Below are positions 19,208 through 51,238 of a stretch of 64,000 nt of DNA, one piece after another (position 1 is the first letter of the stretch; each line of letters starts with the position of its first letter). Below the pieces are notes generated by a model, which was given only the letters and a program-made list of their open reading frames with translations, made no database searches and was not told the DNA's origin. The translations under genes and the position numbers were made by a program. Origin of the DNA: Longimicrobiales bacterium (lineage in GTDB: Bacteria > Gemmatimonadota > Gemmatimonadetes > Longimicrobiales > Gaopeijiaceae); the NCBI GenBank assembly GCA_965248195.1, contig CBDFIQ010000001.1, positions 192,001 through 256,000 on the forward strand, given 5' to 3'.

Positions 19208-19260
19208 GGATCAGACTGCGGTCAACATCCGAGGGCGGGCCGGTGGGCGCAAGCAGAAGC
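19208..19260 (-). promoter_or_regulatory. Dispersed promoter/leader cassette, copy A
   Basis: TTGCGC-N17-GATGTT then GACCGCAGTCTGATC; upstream of a 53-aa ORF (19024..19185). Confidence 0.7.
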
Positions 19261-19291
19261 CCGCCAGATGGAGCAGGCTGGAGCGCGACGG

Positions 19292-19744
19292 CTAATCCCT
19301 TGCACACACCTCCACTAGCCCGCCCTCGCAGGCTCGCTGGTAGAGGCTGAGGGCGCGGTCGACGTCCTGCGTCACGCCCTGGCCGTTCACATATATGAGC
19401 CCGAGGTTGGCACAGCCCTCCATCACACCACCCTCGCAGGCTTGTTCAAAGAGGCTGGCGGCGCGGGGGAAGTCCTGCGTGACCCCTACTCCGTTGCCAT
19501 ATAGGAGCCCGAGGTCGAAGCAGCCCTGCATCGCTCCACCCTCGCAGGCTTGCCGGTAGAGGCTGGTGGCGCGGGCGAGGTCCTGCGTGACGGCCTCACC
19601 CGTGGCATACATGGACCCGAGGTCGCTGCAGGCCGCGCCGATCCCGGCATCGCAGGACCGGCGCAATCCTTCGGCATCCTGACTCACCGATGGACATGCC
19701 AACAGGCCGAGGAAGAGAACGACGAGCAAGGACCTCCGGTTCAT
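19292..19744 (-). CDS. Secreted Sel1-like repeat protein (Hcp-like)
   Basis: AAGGAG RBS, signal peptide, repeated C..LG..Y..G.GV.QD..RA..LY..ACEGG. Confidence 0.88.
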   Translation of the reverse strand: MNRRSLLVVLFLGLLACPSVSQDAEGLRRSCDAGIGAACSDLGSMYATGEAVTQDLARATSLYRQACEGGAMQGCFDLGLLYGNGVGVTQDFPRAASLFEQACEGGVMEGCANLGLIYVNGQGVTQDVDRALSLYQRACEGGLVEVCARD

Positions 19745-19762
19745 AGGCTGGCTCCTTGGTGG

Positions 19763-19814
19763 GATCAGACCGAGGTCAACATCCCAGAGCGGACCGGTAG
19801 GCGCAAGCAGAAGC
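19763..19814 (-). promoter_or_regulatory. Dispersed promoter/leader cassette, copy B
   Basis: GCTTCTGCTTGCGCCTACCGGTCCGCTCTGGGATGTTGACCTCGGTCTGATC just upstream of the Sel1 RBS. Confidence 0.7.
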
Positions 19815-19918
19815 ACCACCATGGCCACCATTAACATCGAGCACCCGGTATTCGGGTGCCGGTGAGGCGTCAAAATGGCTATCATTCGGGCCGTTTGGCC
19901 GACTGGCAAGGAGCGTTC

Positions 19919-21328
19919 ATGACGTCGGAACTGGGGACAGCGGACCACCCGCTCAGGGTGGCCATCATCGGGTCCGGGCCGGCTGGGTTTTATACCGCCG
20001 ACCACCTTCTCAAGCAGAGCGATGTTCATGTCCAGGTCGACATGTTCGAGCGTCTCCCGACTCCCTTCGGCCTCGTGCGTTTTGGTGTCGCCCCGGATCA
20101 CCAGAAGATCAAGAACGTCACGCGGGTGTTCGACCGCATCGCCCAGAAAGAGACGTTCCGGTTTTACGGCGATGTGGAGGTGGGAAAGGACATCAGCCTG
20201 ACCGACCTCAGCCAGCACTTTCACCAAATCTGCTTTTCCACCGGCGCCGAGACAGATCGGCGGATGGGGATCCCCGGCGAGGATCTCACACGAAGCCACA
20301 CCGCCACCGAATTCGTGGCATGGTTCAACGGCCACCCTGACTACCGGGACCATCAGTTCGATTTCTCCGCCGAGCGTGTCGCCGTGGTGGGCGTCGGAAA
20401 CGTCGCGGTAGACGTCGCACGGATCTTGTGCCGCACGCCCGATGAGTTGGCGGAGACCGACATCGCCGACCACGCACTCGAAGCGTTGAGCCAGAGCAAA
20501 GTGCGCGAGGTGACCATGCTCGGCCGGCGCGGGCCCCTCCAGGCCGCCTTCACGAATCCGGAAGTTCGGGAACTGGGCGAGCTGATGGGCGCGGACATCC
20601 ACGTCCCTCCGGAAGACGTGCGCCTCGATTCCCTCAGCCAGGCCGAGCTCGAGAACACGGATGACGACACCCTGCAGAAGAAGATGGCGATTCTCGAAGA
20701 CTTCGCGCAGCGGCCCCCTGAGGGTAAGGAGCGCTTGCTCACGCTTCGGTTCCTGGTCTCACCCACGGAGCTGATTGCCGACGACGACGGCGGGGTCCGG
20801 GCCATACGAATCGTGAACAACGAGCTCGTCTCGGATGCGGGGAAACTGCGCCCTCGCGCCACTGAGCAGACCGAAGAGCTTCCCGTGGACCTAGTGTTTC
20901 GATCGGTCGGATACCGAGGCCTCCCCGTGGAGGGTCTTCCCTTCAACGAGAGCTGGGCAGTGGTCCCGAATGAGAGCGGCCGCGTGACCGAGCCCGAGAC
21001 CGAGAAACCCGTGCGGGGGATGTACGTGAGCGGCTGGATCAAGCGTGGGCCGACCGGAGTGATCGGAACGAACAAGAAAGACGGGACGGAGACCGCCGGC
21101 GCCATGCTGGAAGACGCAGGGTCGTCCTCCGTCCTCGATCCGGCGCATCCCGATCCCACGGCCCTCGACGCGCTGGTTCGGGAGCGTCAGCCCCACATGG
21201 TGAACTATGAGGACTGGAGCCGATTGGATGCGCTGGAGCAGTCGCGAGGCGAAGCTGGTGGGCGGCCACGCGTGAAGTTCACGTCACGGGCCGAGATGCG
21301 AGCCGCGCTGACGGGAGCGCGGCGTTAG
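19919..21328 (+). CDS. Ferredoxin-NADP+ reductase (FprA/adrenodoxin reductase type)
   Basis: IIGSGPAG, PFGLVRFGVAPDH, GVGNVAVDVAR and GWIKRGPTGVIG motifs. Confidence 0.92.
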   Translation: MTSELGTADHPLRVAIIGSGPAGFYTADHLLKQSDVHVQVDMFERLPTPFGLVRFGVAPDHQKIKNVTRVFDRIAQKETFRFYGDVEVGKDISLTDLSQHFHQICFSTGAETDRRMGIPGEDLTRSHTATEFVAWFNGHPDYRDHQFDFSAERVAVVGVGNVAVDVARILCRTPDELAETDIADHALEALSQSKVREVTMLGRRGPLQAAFTNPEVRELGELMGADIHVPPEDVRLDSLSQAELENTDDDTLQKKMAILEDFAQRPPEGKERLLTLRFLVSPTELIADDDGGVRAIRIVNNELVSDAGKLRPRATEQTEELPVDLVFRSVGYRGLPVEGLPFNESWAVVPNESGRVTEPETEKPVRGMYVSGWIKRGPTGVIGTNKKDGTETAGAMLEDAGSSSVLDPAHPDPTALDALVRERQPHMVNYEDWSRLDALEQSRGEAGGRPRVKFTSRAEMRAALTGARR

Positions 21329-22238
21329 CTGACCCCCTCAGACGATCCAAAGTGCTCAAGCGCCCGAATTGCCCGCACCAGGATGAACTCAGCGAATGGA
21401 CCTGCGTTTTTTAGAGAGCCGCATATAAAAGATCTAGGATGTCGCATACGATACCCCTAACGCGACACGAACGTCCTCGGAAACCCACTGAGGATTGGCG
21501 ACCATGCTGAAAACCGCACTCCGGCCGATAGGAACTGGGCGGACGCGAGGAGGAGCGGGAGCAGCAAACCGCAGGCCTACCTGGGCATGGTGCGAGATAA
21601 TTCGAGCGTGCTCTCAAGGGCAGATCGCGCGTCGACGAGTGTGTTGAGGAAAGTCAACTGAAACACGACGTCCCTCAGAGAACGCCGCAGTTCAGCGTGT
21701 ACAGGTGACCCTGGGGCAACTCGTGAGGCCAGTTGGGACAACGTCAGGCTATCGATGACCGCGACGCCGAAAGAGGAGAGGGCCGTCTCGAGGCGAGCCT
21801 GGTATTGTCCGACGCGTCGTTCGTTCCCGCCGATGTCCTCTGCCGTTCGGTAGTAGGCCAGGATGGCGGACCGTAGCTCTTCATCCTCAATGGTCTGGAG
21901 CGCGCCGGAAGCCAGCATCTCTTGGTAGGAATCGTCCGAGAGGTCGAACTCGGGGAACGCGGTAAAGGACAGTAACGGTCGCCCAAGTGGGTCCCACGCT
22001 CCGGTGAACGTGCCACGACCTTGAGCCTCAAGCAGGGCCCGGGCGCGCTCGGGATTCACCAAAGAATCCGGGGGCGCGAGAACTCGAGATCGGCCTCGTC
22101 GGCCCTGAGATCGGCTGCGAGGCGACCGATCAGGTGCTGCTCGAGTACCCGATCTGACCGATAGTCACGCCAGTCGTCTACAGCCAGGGCGACCAATACC
22201 CCCAAGACGATAACGATGAACTCTGAATCGCCCCGGGT

Positions 22239-23174
22239 TCATCGGAGACTGTTTGACTTGAGTGTCAGAGGCTCACCTGGAGCGTCCTGACGCGAATAAT
22301 ACAACTCTTCGTACTCGGCCGGCGGGATATGGCCGTGGGGCTCGAAGAGGCGATGGTGATTGAACCACCAGACCCATTCGAGGGTGGCGAGCTCGATGTC
22401 TTCGAGGGTGCGCCACGGACCGCGTGGACGAATGAGCTCGGTCTTGTAGAGTCCGATGATCGTCTCGGCCAGGGCGTTGTCATACGAATCCCCCCGGCTG
22501 CCTACGGACGGCTCGATGCCTGCCAACGCCAGGCGCTCGGTGTAGCGGATAGACAGGTACTGCCCCCCGCGGTCGCTGTGATGCACCAGGCGCTTGTCTG
22601 CGTCGTCCTCGCGTTCACAGATCGCCTGCTCGAGAGCGTCGAGCGCTAAGTCACTGCGTAATGAGTTCGAGACCCGCCATCCGACGATGCGACGGCTGAA
22701 CGCATCGATCACGAACGCCACGAAGACAAACGCATGGCCCGTCCGCACGTACGTGAGGTCCGAGACCCACAGCTCGTTGGGACGTGCCGCGCTGAAGTCT
22801 CGGTTCACGAGGTCCAGCGGGCGCTCGTCGCCCTCCGCCGTGTGCGTTGTCACCTTGAAGCGCCGCCCTCGCGTAACCCCACAAAGCTCCAGTTCCTTCA
22901 TGAGCCGAGCCACCGTGCATCGAGCCACGGTGATGCCTTCCCGGTTCAGCTGCTTCCACACCTTCTTCGCCCCGTAGACCTGGAAGTTCTGCATCCACAC
23001 TCGACGGATCTCCGGCTTCAGCATCTCGTCGCGCTGAGCCCGGACCGATCGTAGCGTCGGATCTGCCTGCATCGCCTTGTGCGTGTAGTAGGTCGACGGA
23101 GCGATCGGCAGTACCTCGCAGATCGGCTCGACTCCGTACGTGGGCCGGTAATCGTCGATGAAGGCCACCATCAC
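22239..23174 (-). CDS. IS3 transposase OrfB (rve DDE)
   Basis: WVSDLTY, HHSDRG.QY and DNALAE motifs. Confidence 0.93.
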
Positions 23175-23491: not shown

Positions 23492-24229
23492 GACTCCATC
23501 CTCTCAACTGATGGAGTCTCCGGCAAACCCGGGGTGATTCACTCCCCGAGCCAGCGAACTGGCCACTTCTTGTTCAAGCGTCCACCCTCAATCTGAAGTT
23601 GAAGCCAACTCGGAGGCCTACTTCCGAAGTGATGTCGCATAAGGAGAGTAGTCGAATCCAAGGTGTGCGCCGTTCGTGCAATTCTTCCACCGACATCTCT
23701 TACCTGATGCGTGAGTCAGTTGGCCCAGCGCATGTCCGATAACGAATAAGGATTGTTTCCGCACTCTACAGGCGGGCGGGTAGGAAGGCCAGGCTGCTGG
23801 GAGTGCGGAAAGGATCGGTTGAACGAAGCCGCTACGCGGTGGGTGGGGCTATGGAGATTGGAGTGCGTCGAAGTGCGTACGGGATGACCTGAGGCACGCG
23901 AGATGGCTGGACGGAGCTACCGAAGAGCGTGGCAGAGCGCCCCGGTACGACGATATGGGAAGGGTTGAAGGGGCTGTGGCCGACGTAGGCACAGTCGGGT
24001 CCATCGCCGCCGTTGAGGAACAGCCACGTATCAGGATGCGACACGGTGGACCCATGGGTTCGGAGGAGGAGGTCGCCCGAGGACCTGCACACACTGTAGC
24101 ACGCCCTTTCTACAGCTGGGATAGACGTGCAGATCACGAGGCCGTAGATCGAGGAGGATCTCATCGCCATCGAGGGACTCTGGTTGCGGATCGAGGGAGA
24201 CTGCTGGCTGCCCGAGTGCCTCGCGAGAG

Positions 24230-25605
24230 GGTCAAGTCCCGATTTGTGTGTAAAAGCGGAGGAAGCTCCTCGCCTTCGGCTAGGCTGCTTGGGCGACCTC
24301 CTGTTTCTGGAGGAGTGAGAGGTCGAGGTAACGCCGGTCGCCCCAGACGTGTGTGGTCCTGAGTGCGACGGCCGTGATGAGCCTGAGGGCGCTGGCCCGG
24401 TCCGGGAAGGCGCCGGCGGCCTTGATCCTGCGTTTGATCTCGCCGTGCAGCCGCTCGAGGCTGTTGGTGGTACGCAGCCGGGGCCAGTGCGCCTCGGGGA
24501 ACGCGTAGAACTGCGTCGCTGCCCCGAAGCCCCGCTCCAGGACCTCCACGGCCTCGGGCAGCTCCTTCTTCCAGCGTGCGCCGAACTCGCCCAGGAGCTT
24601 CTTCGCCTCGGCGAGTCCGGATGTCTGGAAGATCACCGAGACCTCACGCGCCACGCGCTTGCGTAGGCGGTGGGGGACCCTCGCCCCCACATTACGCTGC
24701 AGATGGACCGTACACCTCTGACGGCGTGCCTCGGGCAGGAAGCGGCGGACCGCAGCTGCCAGGCCTGCGTGCTCATCGGCGATCACGAGCTCGACACCGC
24801 CGAGGCCGCGGTCCTGGAGTTGCTCGAGGAGCTCCGACCAGCTCTGCTGCGACTCCTCAGCGCCCAGCGTGACGGCCAGGAGCCGTCGGTGACCCTCAGG
24901 GCCCACTGCATACGCCACGAGCGCACTCACGTTCTCGACTTTGCGGGCCCAGCGGGCGTCCAAGAACGTGGCGTCCAGGTACAGATAGGGGTGAGGCCCC
25001 TCGATCGGCGCACGGCGCAGCCCTTCCACGGCCTCGTCGAGCCGTTTTGCCACACGACTCACCGTCGAGCGCCCAACACGCTCGCCCATCAGCGCCTCGG
25101 TGACGTCGCCCATCTTGCGCTGTGACACGCCGCTCACATACGCCTCGACCATCATCTCGTCGAGCTCGGGGCTCCTGCGCTGGTAGCGGCCGATCACGTC
25201 GGCCGGCGAACCGTTGTCCCGGCTCCGGGGCATGGCGACCTCGATCTGCCCCAGGCTCGTCAGCAGCCGCCTCAGGTATGTGCCGTTCCTATGGTCCTTC
25301 CGGCTTCCCACCCGCTCGAAGCGGCGTGCACCTACCATGGCCTTCAGCTCCTCTTCCAGCACCATCTCGAGCGTCAGCCGGATCGCGCCTTGAAACAGCT
25401 CGCGCAAATCATCGCGTAGCTCGTCTTGCGTGGCCCGACCGATCTCCACAATCTCTTGCATCGGAAGCTCCTCTCCGGTTCCGAGCCTGCTCTGCAGACC
25501 CGGACTCCCGGGTTCATGTGACAGTGAACAACAACAGAGGAGCTTCCGTTTTTCTTTCCCTCCTGTCCAGCTTATCCGCTTTTACACAAATCTAGGGACA
25601 CTACC
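24230..25605 (-). mobile_element. IS256-family element, copy 2 (1376 bp)
   Basis: Same ends as copy 1; 8-bp target duplication CGCGAGAG (24222-24229, 25606-25613). Confidence 0.95.
24280..25461 (-). CDS. IS256-family DDE transposase
   Basis: Protein identical to 16943..18124. Confidence 0.95.
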   Translation of the reverse strand: MQEIVEIGRATQDELRDDLRELFQGAIRLTLEMVLEEELKAMVGARRFERVGSRKDHRNGTYLRRLLTSLGQIEVAMPRSRDNGSPADVIGRYQRRSPELDEMMVEAYVSGVSQRKMGDVTEALMGERVGRSTVSRVAKRLDEAVEGLRRAPIEGPHPYLYLDATFLDARWARKVENVSALVAYAVGPEGHRRLLAVTLGAEESQQSWSELLEQLQDRGLGGVELVIADEHAGLAAAVRRFLPEARRQRCTVHLQRNVGARVPHRLRKRVAREVSVIFQTSGLAEAKKLLGEFGARWKKELPEAVEVLERGFGAATQFYAFPEAHWPRLRTTNSLERLHGEIKRRIKAAGAFPDRASALRLITAVALRTTHVWGDRRYLDLSLLQKQEVAQAA

Positions 25606-26623
25606 CGCGAGAGCATGCGAGCAGTCGAGCGCGGCTGGCGTTGGCGAAGATCCCGTAGTAGCGGATACGCACGAAGCCCTTCGGTAAGACGTGTAGCAGG
25701 AAGCGACGGGCGAACTCGTGGAGGGGAAGCATGAGAGTCCGGGCCCTGCGACCTCGGTAGTCCTTGTAGCGGAAGCACACAGACTGGTCGTCTACGTGGA
25801 GCAGACGATGGTTCGAGATCGCGACTCGGTGGGTATAGCGAGCCAGGTACTCGAGAACGGGCTTCGGACCGTCGAAGGGGGGTTTGGCATAGACGACCCA
25901 CTCAGTCTGGCGAGCCGCGTTGAGGTGGCGCGCGAACGCCGCGCGTGAGCGGTAGCGGGCGAGGGCACCGTGCAACTCGAGGCTCCCGTCCCGAAACGCA
26001 TCCCAGAGTCCTGCGGTGAACTTTCCCCGGAACAAACGACTGAGCACGCGCACCGGCAGGAAGAAGCCCGGCCGACAAGGACGCCATGTACGGTCACCTT
26101 CCGCCAGGCCGCCCGCTGGGACAACGCAGTGTACGTGCGGATGATGGACCAGCGTCTGGCCCCAAGTATGCAGGACGGCGAAGAACCCGATCCGTGCGCC
26201 GAGATGCTTCGGGTTCAGGGCGACATCCTGCAGCGTCCGCCCCACGGTACGAAGCAGGAGACCGTAGAAAACGCGTGGGTTCTGCAGCGCCAACGGTGCC
26301 AGGCTCTGCGGCACAGTGAAGACGACGTGCGCGTAGGGCACAGGTAACACCTCGGCCTGGCGTGCCTCGAGCCAGTCCGCTTGGGCACTACCCTGGCACT
26401 TTGGACAGTGACGGTTGCGGCACGAGTTGTACGAGATCCTCCGGTGACCGCAGGCGTCGCAGGCGTCGATGTGACCACCCAGCCGTGCGGTTCGGCAGGC
26501 GGTGATCGCCTCGACGACCGCACGTTGCTCCCAACTCCATCTCGCCCCGGATCCCAGCGAGCGCGGCGCTTCGCGGTACTCTTGGAAGACCTCGGCAAGC
26601 TCGTGCCGGGGTCGCTTGGTCAC

Positions 26624-27397
26624 CTACTCCGTTGGCTCGAACTCCGAGCTCAAGGCATCCAGAGGACTCTTAATCGAACGGAGCCGTGCCGTGGCCACGT
26701 GCGTGTAGATCGCCGTGGTCTGGAGCGCCCGGTGACCGAGCAGCGTTTGGATCATCCGCAGATCCGTGCCCGACTCCAGCAGGTGCGTCGCGTAGCTGTG
26801 ACGGAGCGTACGGGGTGTCACCCGCTTCGTGATCCCCGCTCGCGCACCGGCCGCCCCGATCACTCGTTGTACCGTCCGGCTCGTGAGCGGCTGGTCCGGA
26901 GCGCGTCCGTAGAACAGCAAGCTCCTTGGCCTGTACATACGCCAATATGCCCGCAGCGTCGCCAGCAACACGCCCGACAGGACCACCTGCCGGTCCTTGT
27001 CCCCCTTGCCGTGGCGCACGGTGATCACCATCCGGTCACTATCGATGTCGCGCACTTGCAGCCCCAGCACCTCGCTGGTCCTCAGCCCGCCACCGTACAG
27101 CGTCATTGCCATCGCCCGGTGCTTCAGGTTCCCTACCCCCTTGAGCAGACGTCCGACCTCCTCCGGGCTTAGCACCACCGGGTTGCGTCTCTTCTGTCGC
27201 GGGTAGGGGAGGTGGGGCAACAGCTCCGGCCGGTCCAGCGTCACACGGTACAGGAACCGCATTGCCCCCACCGCCTGCTTGAACGCCGAACGCGATACGT
27301 CCCGCTCCTCCTTCAGGTACCGCAGGTATCCGCGTATCTCTTCGCGGCCCAGCGTGTCCGGAGATCGCCCGAAGTGCTGCGCCATCTCGGCGACACG
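26624..27397 (-). pseudogene. Tyrosine recombinase/integrase, 5'-truncated by IS256 copy 3
   Basis: YGGGLRTSE, GKGDKDR, LRHSYATHLLE, LLGH...T..Y; frame open up to the IS end with no native start/RBS. Confidence 0.85.
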
Positions 27398-28773
27398 GGT
27401 AGTGTCCCTAGATTTGTGTAAAAGCGGATAAGCTGGACAGGAGGGAAAGAAAAACGGAAGCTCCTCTGTTGTTGTTCACTGTCACATGAACCCGGGAGTC
27501 CGGGTCTGCAGAGCAGGCTCGGAACCGGAGAGGAGCTTCCGATGCAAGAGATTGTGGAGATCGGTCGGGCCACGCAAGACGAGCTACGCGATGATTTGCG
27601 CGAGCTGTTTCAAGGCGCGATCCGGCTGACGCTCGAGATGGTGCTGGAAGAGGAGCTGAAGGCCATGGTAGGTGCACGCCGCTTCGAGCGGGTGGGAAGC
27701 CGGAAGGACCATAGGAACGGCACATACCTGAGGCGGCTGCTGACGAGCCTGGGGCAGATCGAGGTCGCCATGCCCCGGAGCCGGGACAACGGTTCGCCGG
27801 CCGACGTGATCGGCCGCTACCAGCGCAGGAGCCCCGAGCTCGACGAGATGATGGTCGAGGCGTATGTGAGCGGCGTGTCACAGCGCAAGATGGGCGACGT
27901 CACCGAGGCGCTGATGGGCGAGCGTGTTGGGCGCTCGACGGTGAGTCGTGTGGCAAAACGGCTCGACGAGGCCGTGGAAGGGCTGCGCCGTGCGCCGATC
28001 GAGGGGCCTCACCCCTATCTGTACCTGGACGCCACGTTCTTGGACGCCCGCTGGGCCCGCAAAGTCGAGAACGTGAGTGCGCTCGTGGCGTATGCAGTGG
28101 GCCCTGAGGGTCACCGACGGCTCCTGGCCGTCACGCTGGGCGCTGAGGAGTCGCAGCAGAGCTGGTCGGAGCTCCTCGAGCAACTCCAGGACCGCGGCCT
28201 CGGCGGTGTCGAGCTCGTGATCGCCGATGAGCACGCAGGCCTGGCAGCTGCGGTCCGCCGCTTCCTGCCCGAGGCACGCCGTCAGAGGTGTACGGTCCAT
28301 CTGCAGCGTAATGTGGGGGCGAGGGTCCCCCACCGCCTACGCAAGCGCGTGGCGCGTGAGGTCTCGGTGATCTTCCAGACATCCGGACTCGCCGAGGCGA
28401 AGAAGCTCCTGGGCGAGTTCGGCGCACGCTGGAAGAAGGAGCTGCCCGAGGCCGTGGAGGTCCTGGAGCGGGGCTTCGGGGCAGCGACGCAGTTCTACGC
28501 GTTCCCCGAGGCGCACTGGCCCCGGCTGCGTACCACCAACAGCCTCGAGCGGCTGCACGGCGAGATCAAACGCAGGATCAAGGCCGCCGGCGCCTTCCCG
28601 GACCGGGCCAGCGCCCTCAGGCTCATCACGGCCGTCGCACTCAGGACCACACACGTCTGGGGCGACCGGCGTTACCTCGACCTCTCACTCCTCCAGAAAC
28701 AGGAGGTCGCCCAAGCAGCCTAGCCGAAGGCGAGGAGCTTCCTCCGCTTTTACACACAAATCGGGACTTGACC
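27398..28773 (+). mobile_element. IS256-family element, copy 3 (1376 bp)
   Basis: Same ends and transposase as copies 1 and 2. Confidence 0.95.
27542..28723 (+). CDS. IS256-family DDE transposase
   Basis: Protein identical to the other two copies. Confidence 0.95.
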   Translation: MQEIVEIGRATQDELRDDLRELFQGAIRLTLEMVLEEELKAMVGARRFERVGSRKDHRNGTYLRRLLTSLGQIEVAMPRSRDNGSPADVIGRYQRRSPELDEMMVEAYVSGVSQRKMGDVTEALMGERVGRSTVSRVAKRLDEAVEGLRRAPIEGPHPYLYLDATFLDARWARKVENVSALVAYAVGPEGHRRLLAVTLGAEESQQSWSELLEQLQDRGLGGVELVIADEHAGLAAAVRRFLPEARRQRCTVHLQRNVGARVPHRLRKRVAREVSVIFQTSGLAEAKKLLGEFGARWKKELPEAVEVLERGFGAATQFYAFPEAHWPRLRTTNSLERLHGEIKRRIKAAGAFPDRASALRLITAVALRTTHVWGDRRYLDLSLLQKQEVAQAA

Positions 28774-28954
28774 CGTTTGGGTTGGCTTCTTGGCCATACT
28801 CGGTGGGCTGGGAACCGCCGCTGGTGGAGTCGTCCTGGCATACACCGGGTTTTCGGCATCGATGATGATGATAAACATGCCTGCCAGCCTCCTCCTGCTG
28901 GTGTGGATGATCGCAGTTGGCGTTTTGATGTGGCGTCGAGCCCCGCCATTCTGA
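28774..28954 (+). pseudogene. 3' part of the membrane protein begun at 16282
   Basis: VWVGFLAILGGLGTAAGG...LLVWMIAVGVLMWRRAPPF* in the frame restored by removing the transposon. Confidence 0.85.
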
Positions 28955-31866: not shown

Positions 31867-32282
31867 CGATCGCCTCCGTTGAGACCCGTTGGCTTCGGGT
31901 CCATGGTTTGTAGCTCCGCAATGCTGGCCCGCGAAGACCCGTCCAAGGCGTTTTCGTCACGCGAAGGGGGTGTCTTGTGGTCTACTAGAACGATGTCAGC
32001 GGGAGTACGGACGTACAACACTGGAGTTTTCCCCTACAAGCGCAGCCTCGTCCCTTAGCTACTCCAGAGAGCCGCTGGTGCATGGCTCCTGATTTAGGTT
32101 GATGGGACGCAGAGCCCCAGACCCGGAGTCAGCACCCGTCCGACTGAGCTCGTGTCAGCTCCGATGGCCGAAGGCGAGTGAATCGTTGGGTTCCCCCGCG
32201 ACGGAGCGAGCGTCGAGCTGCTCTGACGGCGACTCCTCTACAGCACCCTGCTCACGCCCGAGCGCGATGACCCCATATCGCC

Positions 32283-42302: not shown

Positions 42303-42413
42303 ATACTGCTCTCAGCCGGGCGGCCCTGGAGGAGCGGCATCCAGGAGCGGATCCGATGAACGTCCCCAGGAGGCGGATCCGCTCCGTCTCCGATCCCATC
42401 CGTACGAGGGAGG

Positions 42414-42857
42414 ATGATCACTATGGCAGTCATCGGGCTGGTTGAAGAGAATGAAGCACCGGAAATGGTGAAGAACGTTTATCGGGGCATCAAGAGCACA
42501 CTGGGCATCGACTTCGTTCCCAATATGTACAAGGCGATGGCGAACGACCCCGAATACCTGGCGAGTTCCTGGAACAAGATCCAGGCGGTCATGGGCGGAA
42601 CGGGTGAGCTCGACAGCCTGACCAAGGACATCATTGCCCTCACGGTCTCGGTCATGAGTGGCTGCGATTACTGTATCGGTGTTTACATGGCCGCGGTGCG
42701 GCATGGCGGCCTGAATGACCAGGCGATCCTCGAACTGCTCGCTGTGGTGGACACGTATCGGGGTCTCAGCCAGTTGAACATCGGCTTGCAACTCGAGCCG
42801 GATGGGCGCCCCTGGCACGGGTGTGGAGGCAAGGTGTCTGCTGCGAACGGTACTTGA
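42414..42857 (+). CDS. AhpD/carboxymuconolactone decarboxylase family protein
   Basis: VPNMYKAMA and K.IIAL.VS..SGCDYC motifs. Confidence 0.82.
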   Translation: MITMAVIGLVEENEAPEMVKNVYRGIKSTLGIDFVPNMYKAMANDPEYLASSWNKIQAVMGGTGELDSLTKDIIALTVSVMSGCDYCIGVYMAAVRHGGLNDQAILELLAVVDTYRGLSQLNIGLQLEPDGRPWHGCGGKVSAANGT

Positions 42858-42973
42858 TCTCTCCTGATCCAACGTTGCGGAGAGGACGTGGTGGGCGGGG
42901 GCGTCCGGCTCGATCTTGTGACTCCGGACGCCTGGAAGACCTATTTGTAGCGGCAATTAAGGACGGGCGACTG

Positions 42974-43019
42974 GCTGGCGCCTACCGGCCCGCTCTCGGA
43001 TGTTGACCTCGGTTCGATC
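42974..43019 (+). promoter_or_regulatory. Dispersed promoter/leader cassette, copy C
   Basis: GCTGGCGCCTACCGGCCCGCTCTCGGATGTTGACCTCGGTTCGATC then GGAG RBS and GTG 43033. Confidence 0.7.
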
Positions 43020-43032
43020 CTGGAGTACGCCC

Positions 43033-43659
43033 GTGTCCGATGCTGTAGCCCGCCTAGACGTCGCCCTGAAGGGCCTCAAGACTCTGCTCCCAGCGAGCTT
43101 GTTTCTTCTCCAAATGGGCTGCGGCCAGAGTAGGGGCGCGCGACCCCTTCCTCCCCTACCGGCCGGCGTGACGGCCGACGTCTCGAAGGTGTCCTACATC
43201 GTGAGGGGCACCACGGTCCCGGAGATACGTGAGTCCCTCCGCGCGGCCGCCACCGGAACTCTGGGCGCGGACACGGTCGGACTCCACAAGTCGAGGCTCA
43301 ATCTAGAGTTCGCGTATACGCAACAGGGGAGCTACTGCGAGATGGTCGAGGTCACCCTCGAGCTCGAATCGGCGATCCAGGTGCCGCAGTGGACCGAGCG
43401 TGGGCGGGCGGACTTCAGGGTGGTCGCCATGTGGGATAGGTACATCAGAGCCGTGCGCGCCCACGAATACACCCACCGGGAGCACCTGTACCGCCGCGCC
43501 AGGGACATCTTCCAAGAGCTGTACCGTATCAAGAGTCCGACGTGCGCCTCCATGCAATCGAAGATCACATCGACCACAGCGCGCATTAACGACCGGTATG
43601 GGCGCCTGAGCAAACAGTTCGACGAGGATAGCCGCATCGCGTGGCCCCCGAGTGAGTGA
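43033..43659 (+). CDS. DUF922-like Zn-dependent protease, probable lipoprotein
   Basis: Y.V.G.T, P.W and HEYTH motifs; MGC lipobox. Confidence 0.72.
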   Translation: MSDAVARLDVALKGLKTLLPASLFLLQMGCGQSRGARPLPPLPAGVTADVSKVSYIVRGTTVPEIRESLRAAATGTLGADTVGLHKSRLNLEFAYTQQGSYCEMVEVTLELESAIQVPQWTERGRADFRVVAMWDRYIRAVRAHEYTHREHLYRRARDIFQELYRIKSPTCASMQSKITSTTARINDRYGRLSKQFDEDSRIAWPPSE

Positions 43660-43704
43660 CATCTGCGCGGTTGTGACCGCCGCCGTGGACAGAGAACCCG
43701 GGTT

Positions 43705-44706
43705 TCAAACCGGGAGATCATCAAAGAAGGGACGAGCGATTGGAGTTGGCGACTCCTGATCTGCCAGGTGGATGGGGAAGCCGCCTGCCTCGAGCCCGGC
43801 CGAGACCTGTTTCATGAACTCATCGGCCTTATGACACCACACGTTGCCCGCAGTCGAGCAGTAGCGGTGCATACCTTGGAATCCGAGAAGCTCAGGTGCC
43901 AGTCGGTCGGCGATGTCCCATCGCCAACCTCTTGCGAAGACCCAAAGGGCGAACACGGGCTTGAAGGTGGGTCGGTGAGTCTGCGTCTTCCAGTCCCATA
44001 CAAGGCCCGACAATCGATCTACCAGTTCTCGGAATCCCCGCTTTATTTCTCGGTCGGTGGGGCCAGGTGCTCTGGGGTCTAACCGCCGGAGGCCGATGTT
44101 ATCGAGACAGTCCGAGAGTTCCATGACTACTACTCCGTGGCCAACCGTCGCGAGCTGATGGCGGGCCTTGCGGAGGCAATCGAATGCTCCTCGTTCGGAC
44201 GTGGGATGCTTCACCTCGACGCCATACGACAGGGCTCCGGGTCTAACGAGAAAATCAGGGCCGTCGTCGCTGAAGCGGACTCGCGGATTGAGCCCGCCGG
44301 CTGTCATGACCGCTCCGAACCAAAGCTGAGTCTGAAACTGACGCGGGGCACCACCTGCCATCGGGTCTTCAATCGGTCCTCCCGAAGCGGTGGCCAACCC
44401 TCTCGTTAGCCGGTCGGACACGTCCTTGGGCAGGGCATTCGAGACATCCCTGAAGTCCCGAGCCGTGAGGATTGCCTCCCCCACTTCCGCCAGCGCATCC
44501 TCCCCGGCCGGATACGCACCAACGGTGGCAGTCGAATTGAGGATATCGGCGCATTCCTTCAACCGACTCCCCTCTTTTGATGCGATGCCGAGTTCGTCGA
44601 ATCGTGCAATAGCCGCACGCAGCGCTTCTTCAAGCGAGAGCAGCTGTTCGACGACAACGCGCTTCTCGTCTGGCAGTGGGAGAAACTCCCGCTCGGCCGT
44701 ATACAT
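43705..44706 (-). CDS. Hypothetical protein with PD-(D/E)XK-like motif
   Basis: 333-aa ORF with GGAG RBS; GPDFLV...YGVEVK. Confidence 0.55.
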   Translation of the reverse strand: MYTAEREFLPLPDEKRVVVEQLLSLEEALRAAIARFDELGIASKEGSRLKECADILNSTATVGAYPAGEDALAEVGEAILTARDFRDVSNALPKDVSDRLTRGLATASGGPIEDPMAGGAPRQFQTQLWFGAVMTAGGLNPRVRFSDDGPDFLVRPGALSYGVEVKHPTSERGAFDCLRKARHQLATVGHGVVVMELSDCLDNIGLRRLDPRAPGPTDREIKRGFRELVDRLSGLVWDWKTQTHRPTFKPVFALWVFARGWRWDIADRLAPELLGFQGMHRYCSTAGNVWCHKADEFMKQVSAGLEAGGFPIHLADQESPTPIARPFFDDLPV

Positions 44707-44722
44707 GGACTCCCCACTCCGA

Positions 44723-44751
44723 GATCAGACCGAGGTCAACATCCGAAAGCG
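44723..44751 (-). promoter_or_regulatory. Dispersed promoter/leader cassette, copy D (core only)
   Basis: CGCTTTCGGATGTTGACCTCGGTCTGATC, 16 bp before ATG 44706. Confidence 0.65.
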
Positions 44752-44765
44752 CGAGCCCCCGGCCA

Positions 44766-45599
44766 TCAGTGACTCATCGCATAGACGATGAAGTTAACGC
44801 CCATCTCGTACGCGTAGGTCGAGTATTTGAGCGGGTAGCGGGGATTGTCCGCCCACTCCCAGGCGTCGCCGAGGTCGGTGTTCCAGTTGATGACCACCAT
44901 CAGTCGGCCGTTATCGTCGTGGATCCCTTTGACCATGGGGACGTACCCGTCTGACTGGTGCGTCGGCCCGCCACGGACGCCGTTGCCGACGTTGGGGACC
45001 TGGAGGATCTCGTCGATCTCGTAAAAGGCCGTGAATATCGGATGGTCGAGGGACAGGTCGACGATCTCGTAGCCGGGAAGCACCGACCGGATCTCGTACT
45101 CCCAGTTGGCCCACTGCCGGGAACCCCAGAAGTCGTCGATGACCAGAAAGCCGCCGGCGAGGAGGTAGTCCCGGAGCCCCACAGTCTCTGGCTCGGTGAG
45201 GGCCATGCGGCCGACCTCGAGAGCGTACAGGAAAGGGAAGCGCCTGACCGAAGGGTCGTCCAAACGGATGACGTGCTCATGCTCGTAGGCGTCGAGGTTC
45301 GAGAGCAAACGGTCTATGAACGAGAGGAAGATCCGGTCGGCCTTGGGGTAGTCCGTGGCCCATGATCCTCTCCTCCGCCTGAACCCTCTCCCGTATCCTG
45401 TATACTGCACGCGTGAGAAGTAGAACTCTCGCGGCACTCCCTCTGCCCGCTGGGTGGCTCGGTCGCGCTCCTCACGCGACGGCTGGTCCCACGGATCCGG
45501 CACAGCCGTGAGTAGCGTAAGTGCGACGGCACTCAAGAAGAATAACGATGCCCGCACCACACACTCCGATTCAGGTCGGCTTTGGCTTGCTTCCTCCAC
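44766..45599 (-). CDS. DUF4159 domain protein
   Basis: WATDYP.AD, GGFLVIDDFWG, NTDLGDAWE and GVNFIVYAMSH motifs. Confidence 0.85.
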   Translation of the reverse strand: MEEASQSRPESECVVRASLFFLSAVALTLLTAVPDPWDQPSREERDRATQRAEGVPREFYFSRVQYTGYGRGFRRRRGSWATDYPKADRIFLSFIDRLLSNLDAYEHEHVIRLDDPSVRRFPFLYALEVGRMALTEPETVGLRDYLLAGGFLVIDDFWGSRQWANWEYEIRSVLPGYEIVDLSLDHPIFTAFYEIDEILQVPNVGNGVRGGPTHQSDGYVPMVKGIHDDNGRLMVVINWNTDLGDAWEWADNPRYPLKYSTYAYEMGVNFIVYAMSH

Positions 45600-45731
45600 C
45601 CGCGATGGGTGTCCAGGAACCTACGACTCCCGGACCCAGGGGGTAAAGTCCGGGTCGACTGCGCTTAAAGCCAGCCTCCGACCTGGGGGCCTACCATGGG
45701 CTGAAAAGGTGGACATACGAAATGCGCCCCC

Positions 45732-48214
45732 CTACTCGTAGCGCACCGCCTCGAGCGGATCTACACGGCTAGCGCGGCGAGCGGGTATCCACACGGCCGC
45801 CAGCGCGATCAGGGTCAAAATGACGGGCACGCTCACAAACACGGGAACATCGCGCGGCTCGACTTCAAATAGGACCGACGCCAGGACATTCGCGAGGAAG
45901 TAAGCCGCGCCCAGTCCGACCGCCACACCAACGATCACGAGCGCCATACCCTGCTTGATGACCATAGTCCTGACCTTGCCCGACTCGGCGCCCATCGCCA
46001 TCCGAATGCCGATCTCTTGAGTGCGTTGCTGCACCGAGTAGGCCATCAGGCCGTAGATCCCGATCGCCGCGAGCAGAAGCGCCGAGCCGCCGAACACGCT
46101 CATCAGCAACATGTTGACCCGCCGGCGTGAAGTGGAGATCGACACGATGTCCTCCATCGACTCAACGTCGGTCACGGGTAGTCCAGTTGATTGGCGCAAC
46201 TCCTCCTGGATGGCCGCCGAGATGTTCCCGGGCTCCACCTCGGTCCGCACCACCCAGGCCATCGGCGTAATGCCGACGTTGAGCGCGTTCAAGCACGTCG
46301 GGCACTTGGGCCTGCGGCATGTACAGGGTCGGGCGTGGTTCGCGGGCGAGTCCCAGGGCGCGCACATTGGCCGCGATGCCGATGACCTGGCGAACCGGCT
46401 CCTCGGCGAGCTCTCGCATGATTCCAGCCCCGCCGCCGATATGCACGCGGTCTGCCAGCGGGTCGGCGCCGTCCGTCCAATACTCGTCCGCCAGGGCTTG
46501 ATTGATGATCACTACTGATGGAGCGTTGCCATCATCCAAGTCGGTGAAGTCGCGGCCCCGGACGATGGGAATCTCGAAGGTTTCGAAGTAGCCGGACGAG
46601 CTCATCATGATGCTCGCGCTGCCGGTGAAGGGGTTCTCGTTGGTCCGCCCGATGATGTTGAAAGGAAGGCCGTATCCGCCTTGCAGGGGAACGCAACACG
46701 TGGCGGTCGCTTGGGCCACACCGGGGATGGAACGGATGCGTTCCAGCGCCAGCCGCGCGGTTTGCTCGACGCCATCCGACGTCAGAAACCGTGGGCCGCT
46801 GAGCGAAGTCCGCATGGTCAGCACGTTGGTGGCCGTGAAGCCCGGATCGACTTGACCGATGGCGAGCGACGTGCGGATGAGCAGCCCAGCGCCGATCAGC
46901 AACACGACGCACAATCCCAACTCGGCAACAACGAGCAGCGAGCGAGTCTTGTTTTGACGAAAGCCGCTGCCCGAGCGGCTGCTCGCGTCCTTGATGACGG
47001 CGTTGAGGTCCGTGCGCGAGGTCACCAAAGCCGGCACTAGACCAAACAGAACGCCGGTGATCAACGACAAAGCGACCGTGAAGCTCACGATGCGCCAATC
47101 CATCCCCATCAGCGTGCCCTCGTCTCCAAGCCGCGGCAATCCCGCCGTATTCACGGACAACAGCGCGCGTATCCCGAGGAAACCGACCACCAGGCCCAAC
47201 ACACCGCCCGTCAGGGACAACAAGACGCTTTCAGTCAGCAGTTGCCGTAAGATCCGCCAGCGCCCGGCGCCGAGCGCCGAGCGCCGAGCGAATCGCGATT
47301 TCACGGCTCCGTCCGGTGGCACGGACCAGGAGCAGGTTTGCGACGTTCGCGCAAGCGATCAACAGCACGAAACCAACCGCGCCGAACAAGATCCACAAGG
47401 TCCTTCGCGCCCCGGGGCCGACCATCGTTTCCTGTAAGGTCCGAACCGTGAACCCCCCGTTTTCGCCCAACGCGTTCGGAAAGCGCTCGCGATACTCGTC
47501 AGCTGAGACTTCCATGCGCTCTTGCGCCTGCTCGAGCGTCACCCCAGGCCGGAGTCTCCCCACCGATTGAAAGTAGTGGCCCTGATCGGTCGTGTTCGGA
47601 TCGAACTGGAACGGAACGAAGAGCTCGGGATCACCAAACTCGCGCAAATCGAAGCCCTCACCGACGATACCAATGATGGTGTACGGGTCCCCGCTCAAGG
47701 ACAGGCTCTTGCCGATAATGTCCGGGTCGGCCGCAAGGCGCCGGTTCCAAAAGTTGTAGCTGAGGACCGTGGTTCTCGCCTCGCCGGGCAGATCCTCCTC
47801 CGGAGCAAACCCGCGTCCTTGTATGATCGGAACGCGGAACGCGCGGAAGTAGGCTTCCGACACCTGGCTCGCGGTGACCCGCTCGGGTACGTCGCCGGCT
47901 GTGTAGTTCAGCGAGTTGTTGCGATAGGCCGCGACGTCCTCGAGTACCTCGGTCTGGGCGCGCCAATGCATGAATTTCGCCGGCGAAGCTCCCCCGCCTG
48001 CGTTGCCGATCTCCCGATTACTGTTCATCAATCGGACCATGCGGTCCGGCTCGGCAAACGGGATGGGCTTGAGCACGACCGTGTTTACGACCGAAAAGAT
48101 CGCCGTGTTGGCTCCGATGCCGATCGTCAGCGCCGCAACCGCGGTGAGGGTGAAGCCCGGGCTCTCTCGGAACATCTTGAGCGCGTGTTTCAGGTCCTGG
48201 AGGAAGGCTTGCAT
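45732..48214 (-). pseudogene. ADOP/MacB-like ABC permease with two frameshifts
   Basis: IGANTAIFSVVN, LIACANVANL and QRTQEIGIRMAMGA in three frames; breaks near 47280 and 46295. Confidence 0.85.
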
Positions 48215-48394
48215 CTTGGTGGCTTCCAGCCTGTCGCCGAGTGAGCTGACCGTGGGCCAGTATGAAAAAACGCGTGCTATTGAAAGGTTCCCGCTGGTGA
48301 GGTTGCGTTGGGGATCTTTCGCTGGGTCTGCCGTTGGTGTTGCGGTAGGCGGGATCTGCTCGCGGTTTGTCGATCAGCGCCGCATCTCGAGCGC

Positions 48395-48511
48395 ATGAGC
48401 GAGGAACGCACCCGACGACTCTCCGCGATCGTGTTCACGGACATGGTGGGCTACACGCATGTCACTTTCTCCCGAAACGAAGTATGCTATCAGGGTTGCA
48501 GCGCATGGTAG
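48395..48511 (+). pseudogene. N-terminal stub of a class III adenylate cyclase
   Basis: MSEERTRRLSAIVFTDMVGYT, then unrelated sequence and a stop. Confidence 0.65.
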
Positions 48512-48570
48512 ACCGTCGCGGCAGCCCGTCACTCGTGATCGAGGCGCGCGCGATACCGAAGGAGGAGAAG

Positions 48571-49560
48571 ATGCCCAGGAAGCTGATCACACTATTCGGT
48601 CTCGTTGCGCTGGTCGCGCTGTCCGCCTGCGGTGGTGGCGCGCCAGCCACCGAGGTCGCTGAAGAGACCCCGGTCGTCGACGTCGCCACAGCGGATCCAA
48701 AGAGTCAATTCGCCGGCGCGTGGACGCTGGTCAAGATCGAGCGGTTTGATGCCGACGGCGACCTGCTGGCGCCCCCTATCGAGGACCGCGTCGGCTACAT
48801 CATCTACGACCCGGCGGGCTACATGGGTGTCACGATCATGCAGCCTGACCGGCGGCCGTATGCCGGCAACCAGCGGACGCCCGAAGAGGCGCTCGCTACC
48901 TATTCGACCTACAACTCGTACTTCGGCACGTTCACCGTCAACGAGACCGAGGGGTTTCTGACGCACCACCTGGAGGGCAGTCTGAACACCCGCGGCGCCG
49001 GCTCCGACTACCAGCGCTTCTATACGTTTTCGGGGAATCGGCTGACGCTGCAGCCGCCGGCGGGTGACAACGGTAACAAGACGCAGCTCACCTGGGAGAA
49101 GCTCCCGGACTTGCCCGAATCCGAGCTCACCGAGACGCACAAGCGGCTGTTCGGCTTCTACCGGATCGAGTCGCTTTCGCGCCGGATCGTATCAGGCGAG
49201 TCGGTCCCGGCCAACCAGTACGAAACCGCGTTCATCATCTACGCTCCCTCCGGGCACATGGCGGTGCATCTGATGCGACCGGGCCGCGAGCCGTACGCCG
49301 GCACGGGGCCGACGCCGGAGGAGGCGCTCGCAGCCGTACAGACGTACGGCAGCTACTTCGGTCCGTTCTCGGTGCATGAGGACGAGGGCTATCTGGTCCA
49401 TCATCGGATCGGCAACCTGAGCCCGGCGGGGACCGGGATCGATGCCCAACGTGGCTACGAGCTGACCGACACGCATCTCACCCTGCGACCGCCCGTCGGG
49501 ACCGACAGCGAAGGCCGTCAGGTGCAAAGCGCGCTGAGGTGGGCACGGATCAGCGACTAG
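48571..49560 (+). CDS. Lipoprotein with two lipocalin-like domains
   Basis: LSAC lipobox; duplicated G.W.L...IIY...G.M.V..M...Y.SYFG.F.V unit. Confidence 0.8.
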   Translation: MPRKLITLFGLVALVALSACGGGAPATEVAEETPVVDVATADPKSQFAGAWTLVKIERFDADGDLLAPPIEDRVGYIIYDPAGYMGVTIMQPDRRPYAGNQRTPEEALATYSTYNSYFGTFTVNETEGFLTHHLEGSLNTRGAGSDYQRFYTFSGNRLTLQPPAGDNGNKTQLTWEKLPDLPESELTETHKRLFGFYRIESLSRRIVSGESVPANQYETAFIIYAPSGHMAVHLMRPGREPYAGTGPTPEEALAAVQTYGSYFGPFSVHEDEGYLVHHRIGNLSPAGTGIDAQRGYELTDTHLTLRPPVGTDSEGRQVQSALRWARISD

Positions 49561-49592
49561 AGCTCAGAGCCGGCCGCGACCGGCTCAGCCCT

Positions 49593-51173
49593 TCAGGACA
49601 GCGGCGGCGTGCTCGTCGGGGGCCGCCGAATGCGCGTGGCCTGTTCGAAGGAGTACGCGAGTTTGATCAGCGTAGGCTCGCTCCACTGGGGGCCGAGCAG
49701 CTCGATACCGATCGGAACACCCAGCGGGGCCGATGGCGTCGATGCCGAAAAACCGCCGGGAAAGGTGATCGCCGGGAAGCCCGTGCTGTTCGAGAGCACG
49801 CCGTTGCGCTCGAGCTGGTCCTCCCCGATCGGCGCCACCAGGCGCCGCTGGTGCGGATATAGTACCGCGTCCAACTCGTTGTCCGCGATCACGGTCATCA
49901 CTGCTTGCCGCAGCTCCTCGCGTCGAAGAAATCGAACGCGATACTCAGGGTCGGCGAGACCGTTCTGGACGCTCTGGTCCGCCTCGAGGCCACGTCGGAG
50001 TGGCGGGTGGAACTCACCCCGCTCGATGAACTCCTCGAGGCTGCGGACCGGAGCGGCAGGACCCAGGCTCGCCAGGTAGCGATTGAATGCGATCTTGAAC
50101 TCGAAGCCCGAGAGCGCGATGCCCCGTGTGAGGTCGGCGAAGTTCGGAATACGGAGGCGTACGACGGTGGCGCCCGCCTCGGTCATCGTCGTGATCGCCT
50201 CCTCGACGACGGCGTTGACCTCCTCGTGGATCGCATCTTGTCCGACGAGATCCAGCACCAGGCCGATGCGAGCTCCTTCGAGGCCGCTCGGGTCGAGCGA
50301 CTCCGTGTAGCTGGGAGGTATCTCCCCCGTGCTGAAGGCCGTGATCGGATCGGCAGGGTCGTAACCGGCGATGACGTCGAGCATCCGGGCGGCGTCCTCG
50401 ACCGTGCGCACGATCGGCCCCACCTCGTCTTGAGTGAAGCTGATCGGTATGACGCCGTCTCGGCTCACGAGGCCACGGCTCCCACGTATCCCGACCAGAC
50501 TCTGAGCCGAGGCTGGCGACCGGATCGACTGCCCGGTGTCGCTTCCGGTCCCCAGCACGCCGAAGTCGGCAGCGATCGCGGCACCCGTCCCGCCACTGGA
50601 TCCGCCCGGTGTGCGGCCGAGGTCGTACGGATTCCGGGTCTGTCCGCCCAAAGAGCTGATGGTCGTCCCTCCCCGGGCCAGCTCGGTGAGGTTCGACTTG
50701 GCCAAAACAAGCGCTCCGGCCTCCCGCAGTCGCCGCACGACGAAGGCGTCGTCTGGCGGGACCGACTGGGCCAGGGCGAGCGAGGCGCCCGTCGTAGGCA
50801 TATCGGCGGTGTCGTAGTTGTCCTTCACGATCACGGGAATGCAGTGGAGGGGCCGGCCCCCGGTCCCGTCTGCGGCATAGAGACGGTCCATCTCCCGGGC
50901 GGTGTCGAGCGCACGCGGGTTCACCGTCAGAATCGCGTTGAGCCCCGGCCCCTGGTCGTCGTACGTCTCGACCCGGCGGAGGTAGTACTCGACCAATTGC
51001 GCGCAGGCGAGAGTACCCGACGCGAAGGCGTCGTGGATCCCTCGGATGGTAGCTTCTTCCAGGGAGAAGGTGCCGCTTCCCTCACTCCCCCCTCCAACTG
51101 TCTGGCCCCCGCAAGCGGCCAGGCCGAGCGTAAGAACCAGGGCTGCATTGAGGCGAGTGACAGGATCGGGCAT
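49593..51173 (-). CDS. Amidase-signature family lipoprotein
   Basis: VKDN, GGSSGG and GSDTGQSIRSPA motifs; LAAC lipobox. Confidence 0.9.
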   Translation of the reverse strand: MPDPVTRLNAALVLTLGLAACGGQTVGGGSEGSGTFSLEEATIRGIHDAFASGTLACAQLVEYYLRRVETYDDQGPGLNAILTVNPRALDTAREMDRLYAADGTGGRPLHCIPVIVKDNYDTADMPTTGASLALAQSVPPDDAFVVRRLREAGALVLAKSNLTELARGGTTISSLGGQTRNPYDLGRTPGGSSGGTGAAIAADFGVLGTGSDTGQSIRSPASAQSLVGIRGSRGLVSRDGVIPISFTQDEVGPIVRTVEDAARMLDVIAGYDPADPITAFSTGEIPPSYTESLDPSGLEGARIGLVLDLVGQDAIHEEVNAVVEEAITTMTEAGATVVRLRIPNFADLTRGIALSGFEFKIAFNRYLASLGPAAPVRSLEEFIERGEFHPPLRRGLEADQSVQNGLADPEYRVRFLRREELRQAVMTVIADNELDAVLYPHQRRLVAPIGEDQLERNGVLSNSTGFPAITFPGGFSASTPSAPLGVPIGIELLGPQWSEPTLIKLAYSFEQATRIRRPPTSTPPLS

Positions 51174-51186
51174 GGGCGCGCTCCGG

Positions 51187-51238
51187 GATCAGACCGAGGT
51201 CAACATCCGAGAGTGGGCCGGTGGGCGCAAGCGGAAGC
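51187..51238 (-). promoter_or_regulatory. Dispersed promoter/leader cassette, copy E
   Basis: GCTTCCGCTTGCGCCCACCGGCCCACTCTCGGATGTTGACCTCGGTCTGATC-CCGGAGCGCGCCC-ATG. Confidence 0.72.

What the first reader, a model, noticed from the sequence alone, without database searches (positions are those of the whole stretch)
19208..51238. One ~50-bp promoter/leader cassette sits upstream of five unrelated ORFs
Seen: consensus GCTTCyGCTTGCGCCyACCGGyCCrCyCTCGGATGTTGACCTCGGTCTGATC at 19208-19260(-), 19763-19814(-), 42974-43019(+), 44723-44751(-, core only) and 51187-51238(-). Each copy lies about 13-23 bp upstream of a start codon and points toward it. The ORFs are a 53-aa signal-peptide ORF, a Sel1 protein, a DUF922 protease, a putative nuclease and an amidase. 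A and B bracket the Sel1 gene as direct repeats. The cassette has no terminal IRs or target duplications. Inference: TTGCGC-N17-GATGTT is a sigma70-like promoter, but conservation runs through the spacer and 5'-UTR, more than a regulon needs. That fits a portable expression site where genes are swapped in by recombination, integron-like but without attC.
Basis: partly seen in the sequence, partly recalled or inferred. Interest (0 to 1): 0.85.

Follow-up and report, generated by a model that had tools for sequence, protein, structure and literature searches.

The report
Kinase promoter stubs drive swapped genes
The repeat is the leftover front end (promoter, ribosome site and often a few first codons) of a many-copy protein-kinase gene in one group of marine bacteria; it sits before unrelated genes, likely lending them a promoter and likely serving now and then as a patch where ordinary recombination swaps the gene behind it.

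Summary
Observation confirmed: five copies, none by chance; 29 more-or-less full copies genome-wide, and copies in 10 of 11 congeners but 0 of 29 other relatives. The cassette is not free-standing. It is the promoter, leader and ribosome site of an expanded Ser/Thr kinase (Pkinase+PD40) family: it heads intact 880-897 aa kinases in congeners, and elsewhere trails kinase stubs of continuous length before unrelated genes; window copies C and E fuse such stubs in frame to DUF922 and amidase. Common descent explains the conserved spacer. The -35/-10 boxes carry 3 of 528 mismatches against 105 of 748 in the spacer, which points to selection for promoter function. Orthologous genes swap heads between genomes, and one site shows a clean switch to a paralogous cassette plus a different downstream gene. 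No fixed crossover point, attC, hairpin, linked recombinase or Rfam match was found, and 93% of synteny breaks lie away from these anchors. Closest known: PeSL cassettes of T4-type phages, without the terminator. This scan already noted the same kinase-end pattern twice elsewhere in this genome.

The parts
19186..19260 (-). Copy A: kinase-family promoter P1 (-35 TTGCGC 19252-19247, 17-nt spacer, -10 GATGTT 19229-19224) with the longer leader variant; no kinase codons
19024..19185 (-). 53-aa ORF behind A; its first 25 residues resemble, by eye, the leader of secreted proteins that follow P1 elsewhere, so likely itself a 5' stub; BLASTP test not significant
19292..19744 (-). Sel1-repeat protein (150 aa) between copies B and A
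   Evidence: a 628-nt contig with 1 difference bridges 19240-19867
19745..19814 (-). Copy B: P1 (-35 19806-19801, -10 19783-19778), divergent from an FAD/NAD oxidoreductase whose orthologs in four congeners also have a kinase head here, each of another type
42968..43072 (+). Copy C: P1 (-35 variant TGGCGC 42976-42981, -10 42999-43004), leader, GTG at 43033 and about 41 nt of kinase codons fused in frame to DUF922
43033..43659 (+). Kinase-stub::DUF922 fusion (208 aa); same fusion in G006 (L032) with other neighbours on both sides
44707..44751 (-). Copy D: right half only (-10 at 44743-44738, leader, ribosome site), no -35; directly behind the DUF4159 stop, where G006 has a kinase-tail remnant instead
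43705..44706 (-). 333-aa ORF of no known family behind D
51139..51238 (-). Copy E: P1 (-35 51230-51225, -10 51207-51202), leader, ATG at 51173 and about 35 nt of kinase codons fused in frame to the amidase
49593..51173 (-). Kinase-stub::amidase fusion (526 aa); G011 ortholog has its native start, G006 ortholog has a stub under a different promoter
53234..53367 (-). Second kinase promoter type P2 plus about 20 kinase codons, in front of an ABM monooxygenase gene (52865-53227); orthologs have a native 5' end (G005) or P1 (G006, G011)

Best explanation
The cassette is the promoter, leader and ribosome site of an expanded Ser/Thr kinase gene family, left in front of unrelated genes after the kinase body was lost, and it is likely kept because it expresses those genes and likely acts as an occasional patch for ordinary homologous recombination. 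Steps: (1) shown: it heads intact kinases in congeners and stubs of many lengths elsewhere; (2) inferred: an illegitimate event (deletion, or homology-anchored uptake of DNA) first joins a kinase head to a new gene; (3) shown as a pattern, not assayed: the -35 and -10 boxes are purged of change while the spacer drifts; (4) shown at one site, suggested at others: crossover inside the 50-200 bp shared sequence exchanges the gene behind it; (5) inferred: no dedicated recombinase is involved.
For: P1 heads intact 880, 885 and 897 aa Pkinase+PD40 proteins. Of 107 copies, 52 have no kinase codons, 46 have 14-251 nt and 9 have 295 nt or more. Kinase remnants in G000 are polar: 30 hits for nt 1-90 against 4-10 for each of eight later 90-nt windows. 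Position-blind scan, 44 copies, 0 in reversed control: boxes 3 of 528 mismatches, spacer 105 of 748. 87 of 102 point into a same-strand gene. Amidase, ABM, DUF4159 and oxidoreductase orthologs carry different heads in different genomes. Among 125 copies 1 pair shares both flanks, 2 share only the left, 6 only the right. G000 C2:1766766 and L133 are 98-99% alike over 300 nt, fall to 83% inside the repeat, then differ in gene. Common polymorphic sites in the core show all four allele combinations. 9 of 15 orphan kinase-tail remnants have a same-strand head within 4 kb upstream, 1 an opposite one.
Against: No transcript start could be mapped (only contigs); a sigma-70 consensus scan finds no promoter at C, D or E. 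Only one crossover is clean, and L133 is a short contig of uncertain binning; the second same-left pair does not show the identity step clearly. Only 23 of 313 synteny-block ends lie near an anchor (7%, against 71 of 2643 local gene ends), in loci chosen around cassettes, so most shuffling has other causes. Microhomology at junctions is not above a simulated null (3 of 19 at 4 nt or more, null 12%, p 0.42). Four of the nine head-cargo-tail cases lie in one array. Copies are related, so the p-values overstate. Four-allele patterns can come from repeated mutation.
Confidence: 0.65

Rival explanations
1. Pure decay with promoter capture: kinase genes in tandem arrays were trimmed by deletions that fused their promoters to whatever lay downstream; the repeats play no real part in moving genes.
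For: G000 has 3 listed full kinase-domain matches against 32 in G005 and 17 in G011 (list cut at 150 of 545); short stubs dominate; one copy joins codon 7 straight to the kinase tail (L033); 93% of block ends are away from anchors.
Against: Identity step inside the repeat with gene change; same amidase stub fusion under two promoters; free assortment of core variants; tail remnants without a promoter are kept too.
Confidence: 0.24
2. A dedicated, integron-like or Xer-like site where a recombinase inserts genes behind a promoter.
For: Short, high-copy, oriented sequence before unrelated genes; a few copies break in the spacer (copy D, and left-half copies); the genome has an attC-like family and integrases.
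Against: Junctions spread from the -10 box to codon 80; both ends vary; no hairpin (z -0.76 to +1.03); the attC-like family is a separate repeat with no copy in the window; the genome's dif-like site has a 6-bp centre against 12 here; no integrase hit within 5 kb of a P1 copy.
Confidence: 0.04
3. A regulon: independent genes that converged on one sigma-factor or regulator site.
For: The two boxes are almost invariant, with a non-canonical G at -12.
Against: Spacer 86% and leader 78% conserved and continuous with kinase codons: descent, not convergence. A special sigma factor may still read the boxes.
Confidence: 0.04
4. A MITE, REP or stump of an IS91-type element.
For: Dispersed copies; an IS91-like transposase with integrase lies in the window.
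Against: No Rfam match, no fold, no terminal repeats, variable ends, no likeness to either flank of the IS91-like element (best local scores 13-18), 0 viral contigs.
Confidence: 0.03

Closest known systems
PeSL (promoter-early stem-loop) cassettes of T4-type phages RB49/phi1 (PMC2839356; abstract and passages seen)
   Same: About 100-bp repeats holding a sigma70-like promoter, in variable regions, before non-essential genes; gene replacement by homologous recombination between copies, no known recombinase.
   Different: Here chromosomal, derived from a kinase gene head, with coding stubs and in-frame fusions, variable ends, no terminator stem-loop; promoter activity and mini-circles not shown.
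Homology-facilitated illegitimate recombination and Vibrio cholerae T6SS effector displacement (PMC5361080 passages; PMC3240628 abstract)
   Same: Conserved 5' anchor, new gene behind it, 3' remnant of the displaced gene left downstream.
   Different: Dozens of dispersed anchors and unrelated cargo rather than one locus; microhomology not shown here.
Promoter capture and deletion-born gene fusions (PMC4395868 passages; PMC12803068 abstract)
   Same: Deletion puts a gene under another gene's promoter, often as an in-frame fusion.
   Different: One promoter family captured dozens of times per genome across a genus, and heads exchanged between orthologs.
Integron (attI/attC, Pc, IntI; features recalled)
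   Same: One promoter type in front of exchangeable single genes.
   Different: No fixed crossover site, no attC hairpin, no linked integrase.

Membership tests
5' end of the Gemmatimonadota Pkinase+PD40 kinase family | Cassette directly heads intact kinase genes | tested here: met
   L045, L050, L052: 880-897 aa, Pkinase and PD40
5' end of the Gemmatimonadota Pkinase+PD40 kinase family | Copies continue into kinase codons in register | tested here: met
   55 of 107 copies; window copies C and E
PeSL cassette | sigma70-like -35/-10 promoter | tested here: inconclusive
   boxes 17 nt apart and selectively conserved; not found by the consensus scan of 42800-53600; no assay
PeSL cassette | Terminator stem-loop inside the repeat | tested here: not met
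   fold z -0.76 to +1.03 for four copies; no terminator hit at C, D or E
PeSL cassette | Gene replacement by crossover between copies | tested here: inconclusive
   one clean case, supporting flank counts
PeSL cassette | Mini-circles | not testable with these tools
   contigs only; two A-B skipping joints have sides of 24-30 nt and may come from other copies
PeSL cassette | Located in a phage genome | tested here: not met
   chromosomal contig; 0 exact matches in viral contigs
Integron | Crossover at a fixed position | tested here: not met
   continuous junction positions
Integron | attC hairpins after cassette genes | tested here: not met
   attC-like family of 20 segments lies elsewhere, none in window
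Integron | Adjacent integrase | tested here: not met
   6 integrase-like hits to the window integrase, none within 5 kb of a P1 copy; no IntI profile search was run
HFIR product | Microhomology at the illegitimate junction | tested here: inconclusive
   3 of 19 junctions with 4 nt or more, null 12%; small, filtered set
HFIR product | Host takes up DNA | tested here: inconclusive
   ComEC and DprA frames open, but both also ring in most control genomes
MITE/REP/Rfam RNA | Terminal inverted repeats or stable hairpin, fixed ends, family match | tested here: not met
Xer dif/pdif site | Two 11-bp arms with a 6-8 bp centre (recalled) | tested here: not met
   look-alike arms are 12 bp apart; the genome's dif-like site at C2:1833002 is different

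The most novel reading that the evidence does not exclude
Heads and tails of a kinase gene family have been domesticated into a genus-wide, integrase-free gene-capture platform: incoming DNA carrying head-cargo-tail recombines into any of dozens of kinase loci, which gives each new gene a ready promoter and start, and direct pairs such as A and B release cargo as circles, a chromosomal counterpart of phage PeSL shuffling.
Probability: 0.2. Interest if true: 0.75.

Novelty: new variant of a known kind. Interest (0 to 1): 0.45.

Why it matters
It shows how a bloated paralog family can seed a genome with ready-made, selected promoters and short homology patches that express and exchange accessory genes without any mobile-element enzyme. 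It also warns annotators: many genes in this genus start with 5-60 kinase residues that are not evidence of kinase function. The ingredients (promoter capture, recombination between promoter repeats) are known; the scale in a chromosome and the kinase origin did not turn up in 8 literature searches.

Tried and rejected
Rfam scan of the whole window: only an IS3 frameshift signal. RNA fold of four copies: not above shuffles. Viral contigs: 0. Likeness to IS91-like ends: none. dif-like reading: spacing wrong. sigma54 reading (GG-N10-GC by eye): the GG positions are poorly kept, 62-86% (that script ended in an error after the table and its columns are offset by 6). Microhomology test: not significant; it dropped junctions whose left sides were 70% or more alike or whose right sides did not register, among them the amidase case. 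53-aa ORF against a secreted-family leader: BLASTP E 0.33. Sequencing runs: only contigs were served, RNA runs hold 5-12% of the words, so no start or expression could be read; joints at cassettes have short sides and were not used. Nuclease label: no family support. Earlier-finding searches by sequence and by words found nothing; the search by place with words did. Supplements of papers were not opened.

Full report
Observation. They lie 13-22 nt before a start codon and point at it. Pfam confirms Sel1, DUF922 and amidase; the ORF after D has no family in Pfam or NCBIfam and only unnamed Atlas neighbours. A 628-nt contig from a public run bridges the Sel1 gene and copy B with one difference, so the arrangement is not an assembly artefact.

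Extent. A profile search of the genome gave 50 hits at E up to 10; a position-blind 52-nt scan keeps 29 in G000, with 0 for the reversed pattern. The pattern occurs in 10 of 11 congeners and 0 of 29 other family and order members searched. Titles of public records with exact matches are mostly Longimicrobiales or other Gemmatimonadota; three of 43 are labelled with other phyla. No viral contig matches.

Identity. Downstream, many copies run on into the same start, MSDPVTRLNAAL and onward, of a Ser/Thr kinase. In congeners the cassette heads intact Pkinase+PD40 proteins of 880, 885 and 897 aa. Among 107 copies from G000 and fetched loci, 52 have no kinase codons, 46 have 14-251 nt in a smooth series and 9 have 295 nt or more. 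In G000 none of the 29 drives an intact kinase. Copies C and E fuse about 41 and 35 nt of kinase in frame to DUF922 and amidase. Upstream the repeat reaches up to about 150 bp, to the end of a short membrane-helix ORF, again with variable ends. The family is large in the genus: 32 listed full-domain matches in G005, 17 in G011, 3 in G000 (list cut at 150 of 545). Remnants are polar: 30 hits for the first 90 nt against 4-10 for each later window, using a model from 5 intact kinases of relatives. A second promoter type carries the same stubs (23 hits in G000, one in the window at 53234-53367), and the kinase's last codons with the start of the next gene form a third repeat.

Promoter. In 44 copies from G000, 400 kb of G005 and 140 kb of G011, found without position weights, TTGCGC has 3 mismatches in 264 bases and GATGTT 0 in 264, against 105 in 748 for the 17-nt spacer and 155 in 704 for the leader. 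Only one of the 44 heads an intact kinase. The scan is ungapped and the copies are related, so the p-values overstate, but the contrast is large. With a simple gene caller of my own, 87 of 102 scorable copies point into a same-strand gene; several of the 15 others face an insertion sequence or a missed ORF. A generic sigma-70 scan of 42800-53600 does not call C, D or E, and no transcript start could be read. Promoter activity is therefore inferred.

Swapping. Read by eye: the amidase has a native start in G011, a kinase stub under another promoter in G006 and a stub under P1 here; the ABM gene is native in G005, behind P2 plus stub here, and behind P1 in G006 and G011; DUF4159 is fused to a stub in G006 only; the oxidoreductase next to B has a kinase head as divergent neighbour in all 5 genomes with flank, each of different type. 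Of 125 copies under 24 genome labels (some may be one genome twice), 1 pair shares both flanks, 2 share only the left and 6 only the right, two of those six being about 81% paralogs. The best case: G000 C2:1766766 and L133 are 98-99% alike for 300 nt, drop to 83% inside the upstream repeat, and continue into different genes, while L133's gene follows the cassette at another site in G005. That is the mark of a crossover into a paralogous copy. Common variable sites of the core occur in all four combinations. Of 19 kinase-tail repeats, 4 follow intact or nearly intact kinases; 9 of the other 15 have a same-strand head within 4 kb upstream, 1 an opposite one, 3 a same-strand head downstream; four of the nine lie in one array.

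Against a special system. Junctions are not at one base. There is no hairpin, no Rfam family, no likeness to the IS91-like element or to the genome's dif-like site; an attC-like family exists but is a different repeat outside the window. Synteny with congeners in these accessory regions breaks into blocks of median 1.25 kb, and only 23 of 313 block ends lie near an anchor, against 71 of 2643 nearby gene ends, in loci picked around cassettes. Microhomology at junctions was not above a simulated null. ComEC and DprA are intact but common.

Mechanism. Most likely (0.65): illegitimate events join kinase heads to new genes (inferred); selection keeps the promoter boxes (pattern shown); the shared 50-200 bp then lets general recombination exchange what lies on either side (one clear case). 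Pure decay with promoter capture is the main rival (0.24).

Known systems. This works like a PeSL but is not one: no terminator, no phage, coding stubs, variable ends. Homology-anchored displacement in Vibrio T6SS loci (PMC5361080, passages; PMC3240628, abstract) and promoter-capture fusions (PMC4395868, passages; PMC12803068, abstract) cover the first step. A survey of marine Gemmatimonadota genomes has one unrelated mention of 'kinase' and none of 'integron' or 'transformation' (PMC11316326, passages). Eight searches found no paper on these repeats. Integron, dif and sigma54 features are recalled, not from a call.

Verdict. Real, genus-wide, a new variant of known kinds; already noted twice by this scan on other parts of the genome. 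Interest 0.45.

Noticed in passing
window 16798-18174, 24229-25607, 27396-28774: Three identical IS256-family elements; 104 full-length copies in G000 and none in the DNA fetched from congeners: a recent burst.
   Followed up: partly
window 25601-27385 (-): IS91-like Y2 transposase with a tyrosine integrase, cut by IS256; a second copy at C1:105407-107185.
   Followed up: partly
window 48313-48460 (+): End of the membrane-helix ORF that precedes P1 elsewhere, then a 22-codon stub like the start of adenylate-cyclase-type genes, before a lipocalin-like gene: the stub pattern is not limited to kinases.
   Followed up: no
window 59789-59841 (-): Isolated internal kinase fragment, codons 52-69.
   Followed up: no
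window 18449-18488, 63752-63790, 13153-13242, 32198-32272, 58309-58376, 18246-18420: Other short intergenic repeat families (4-17 copies in the genome), some palindromic; one is often joined directly to P1 in public contigs.
   Followed up: partly
window 57038-58195 (-): Secreted-looking 368-385 aa protein with no Pfam or NCBIfam family and 10-20 relatives per congener genome.
   Followed up: no
G000 C2:1833002: dif-like site of the chromosome.
   Followed up: no
L126: P1 with a 37-codon kinase stub on a 2.2-Mb contig titled Acidobacteriota: possible transfer across phyla.
   Followed up: no
G000 C2:541148-550638, C1:819300: About 12 copies of a short repeat reading as one protein's C-terminal end; another gene-end remnant family.
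   Followed up: no
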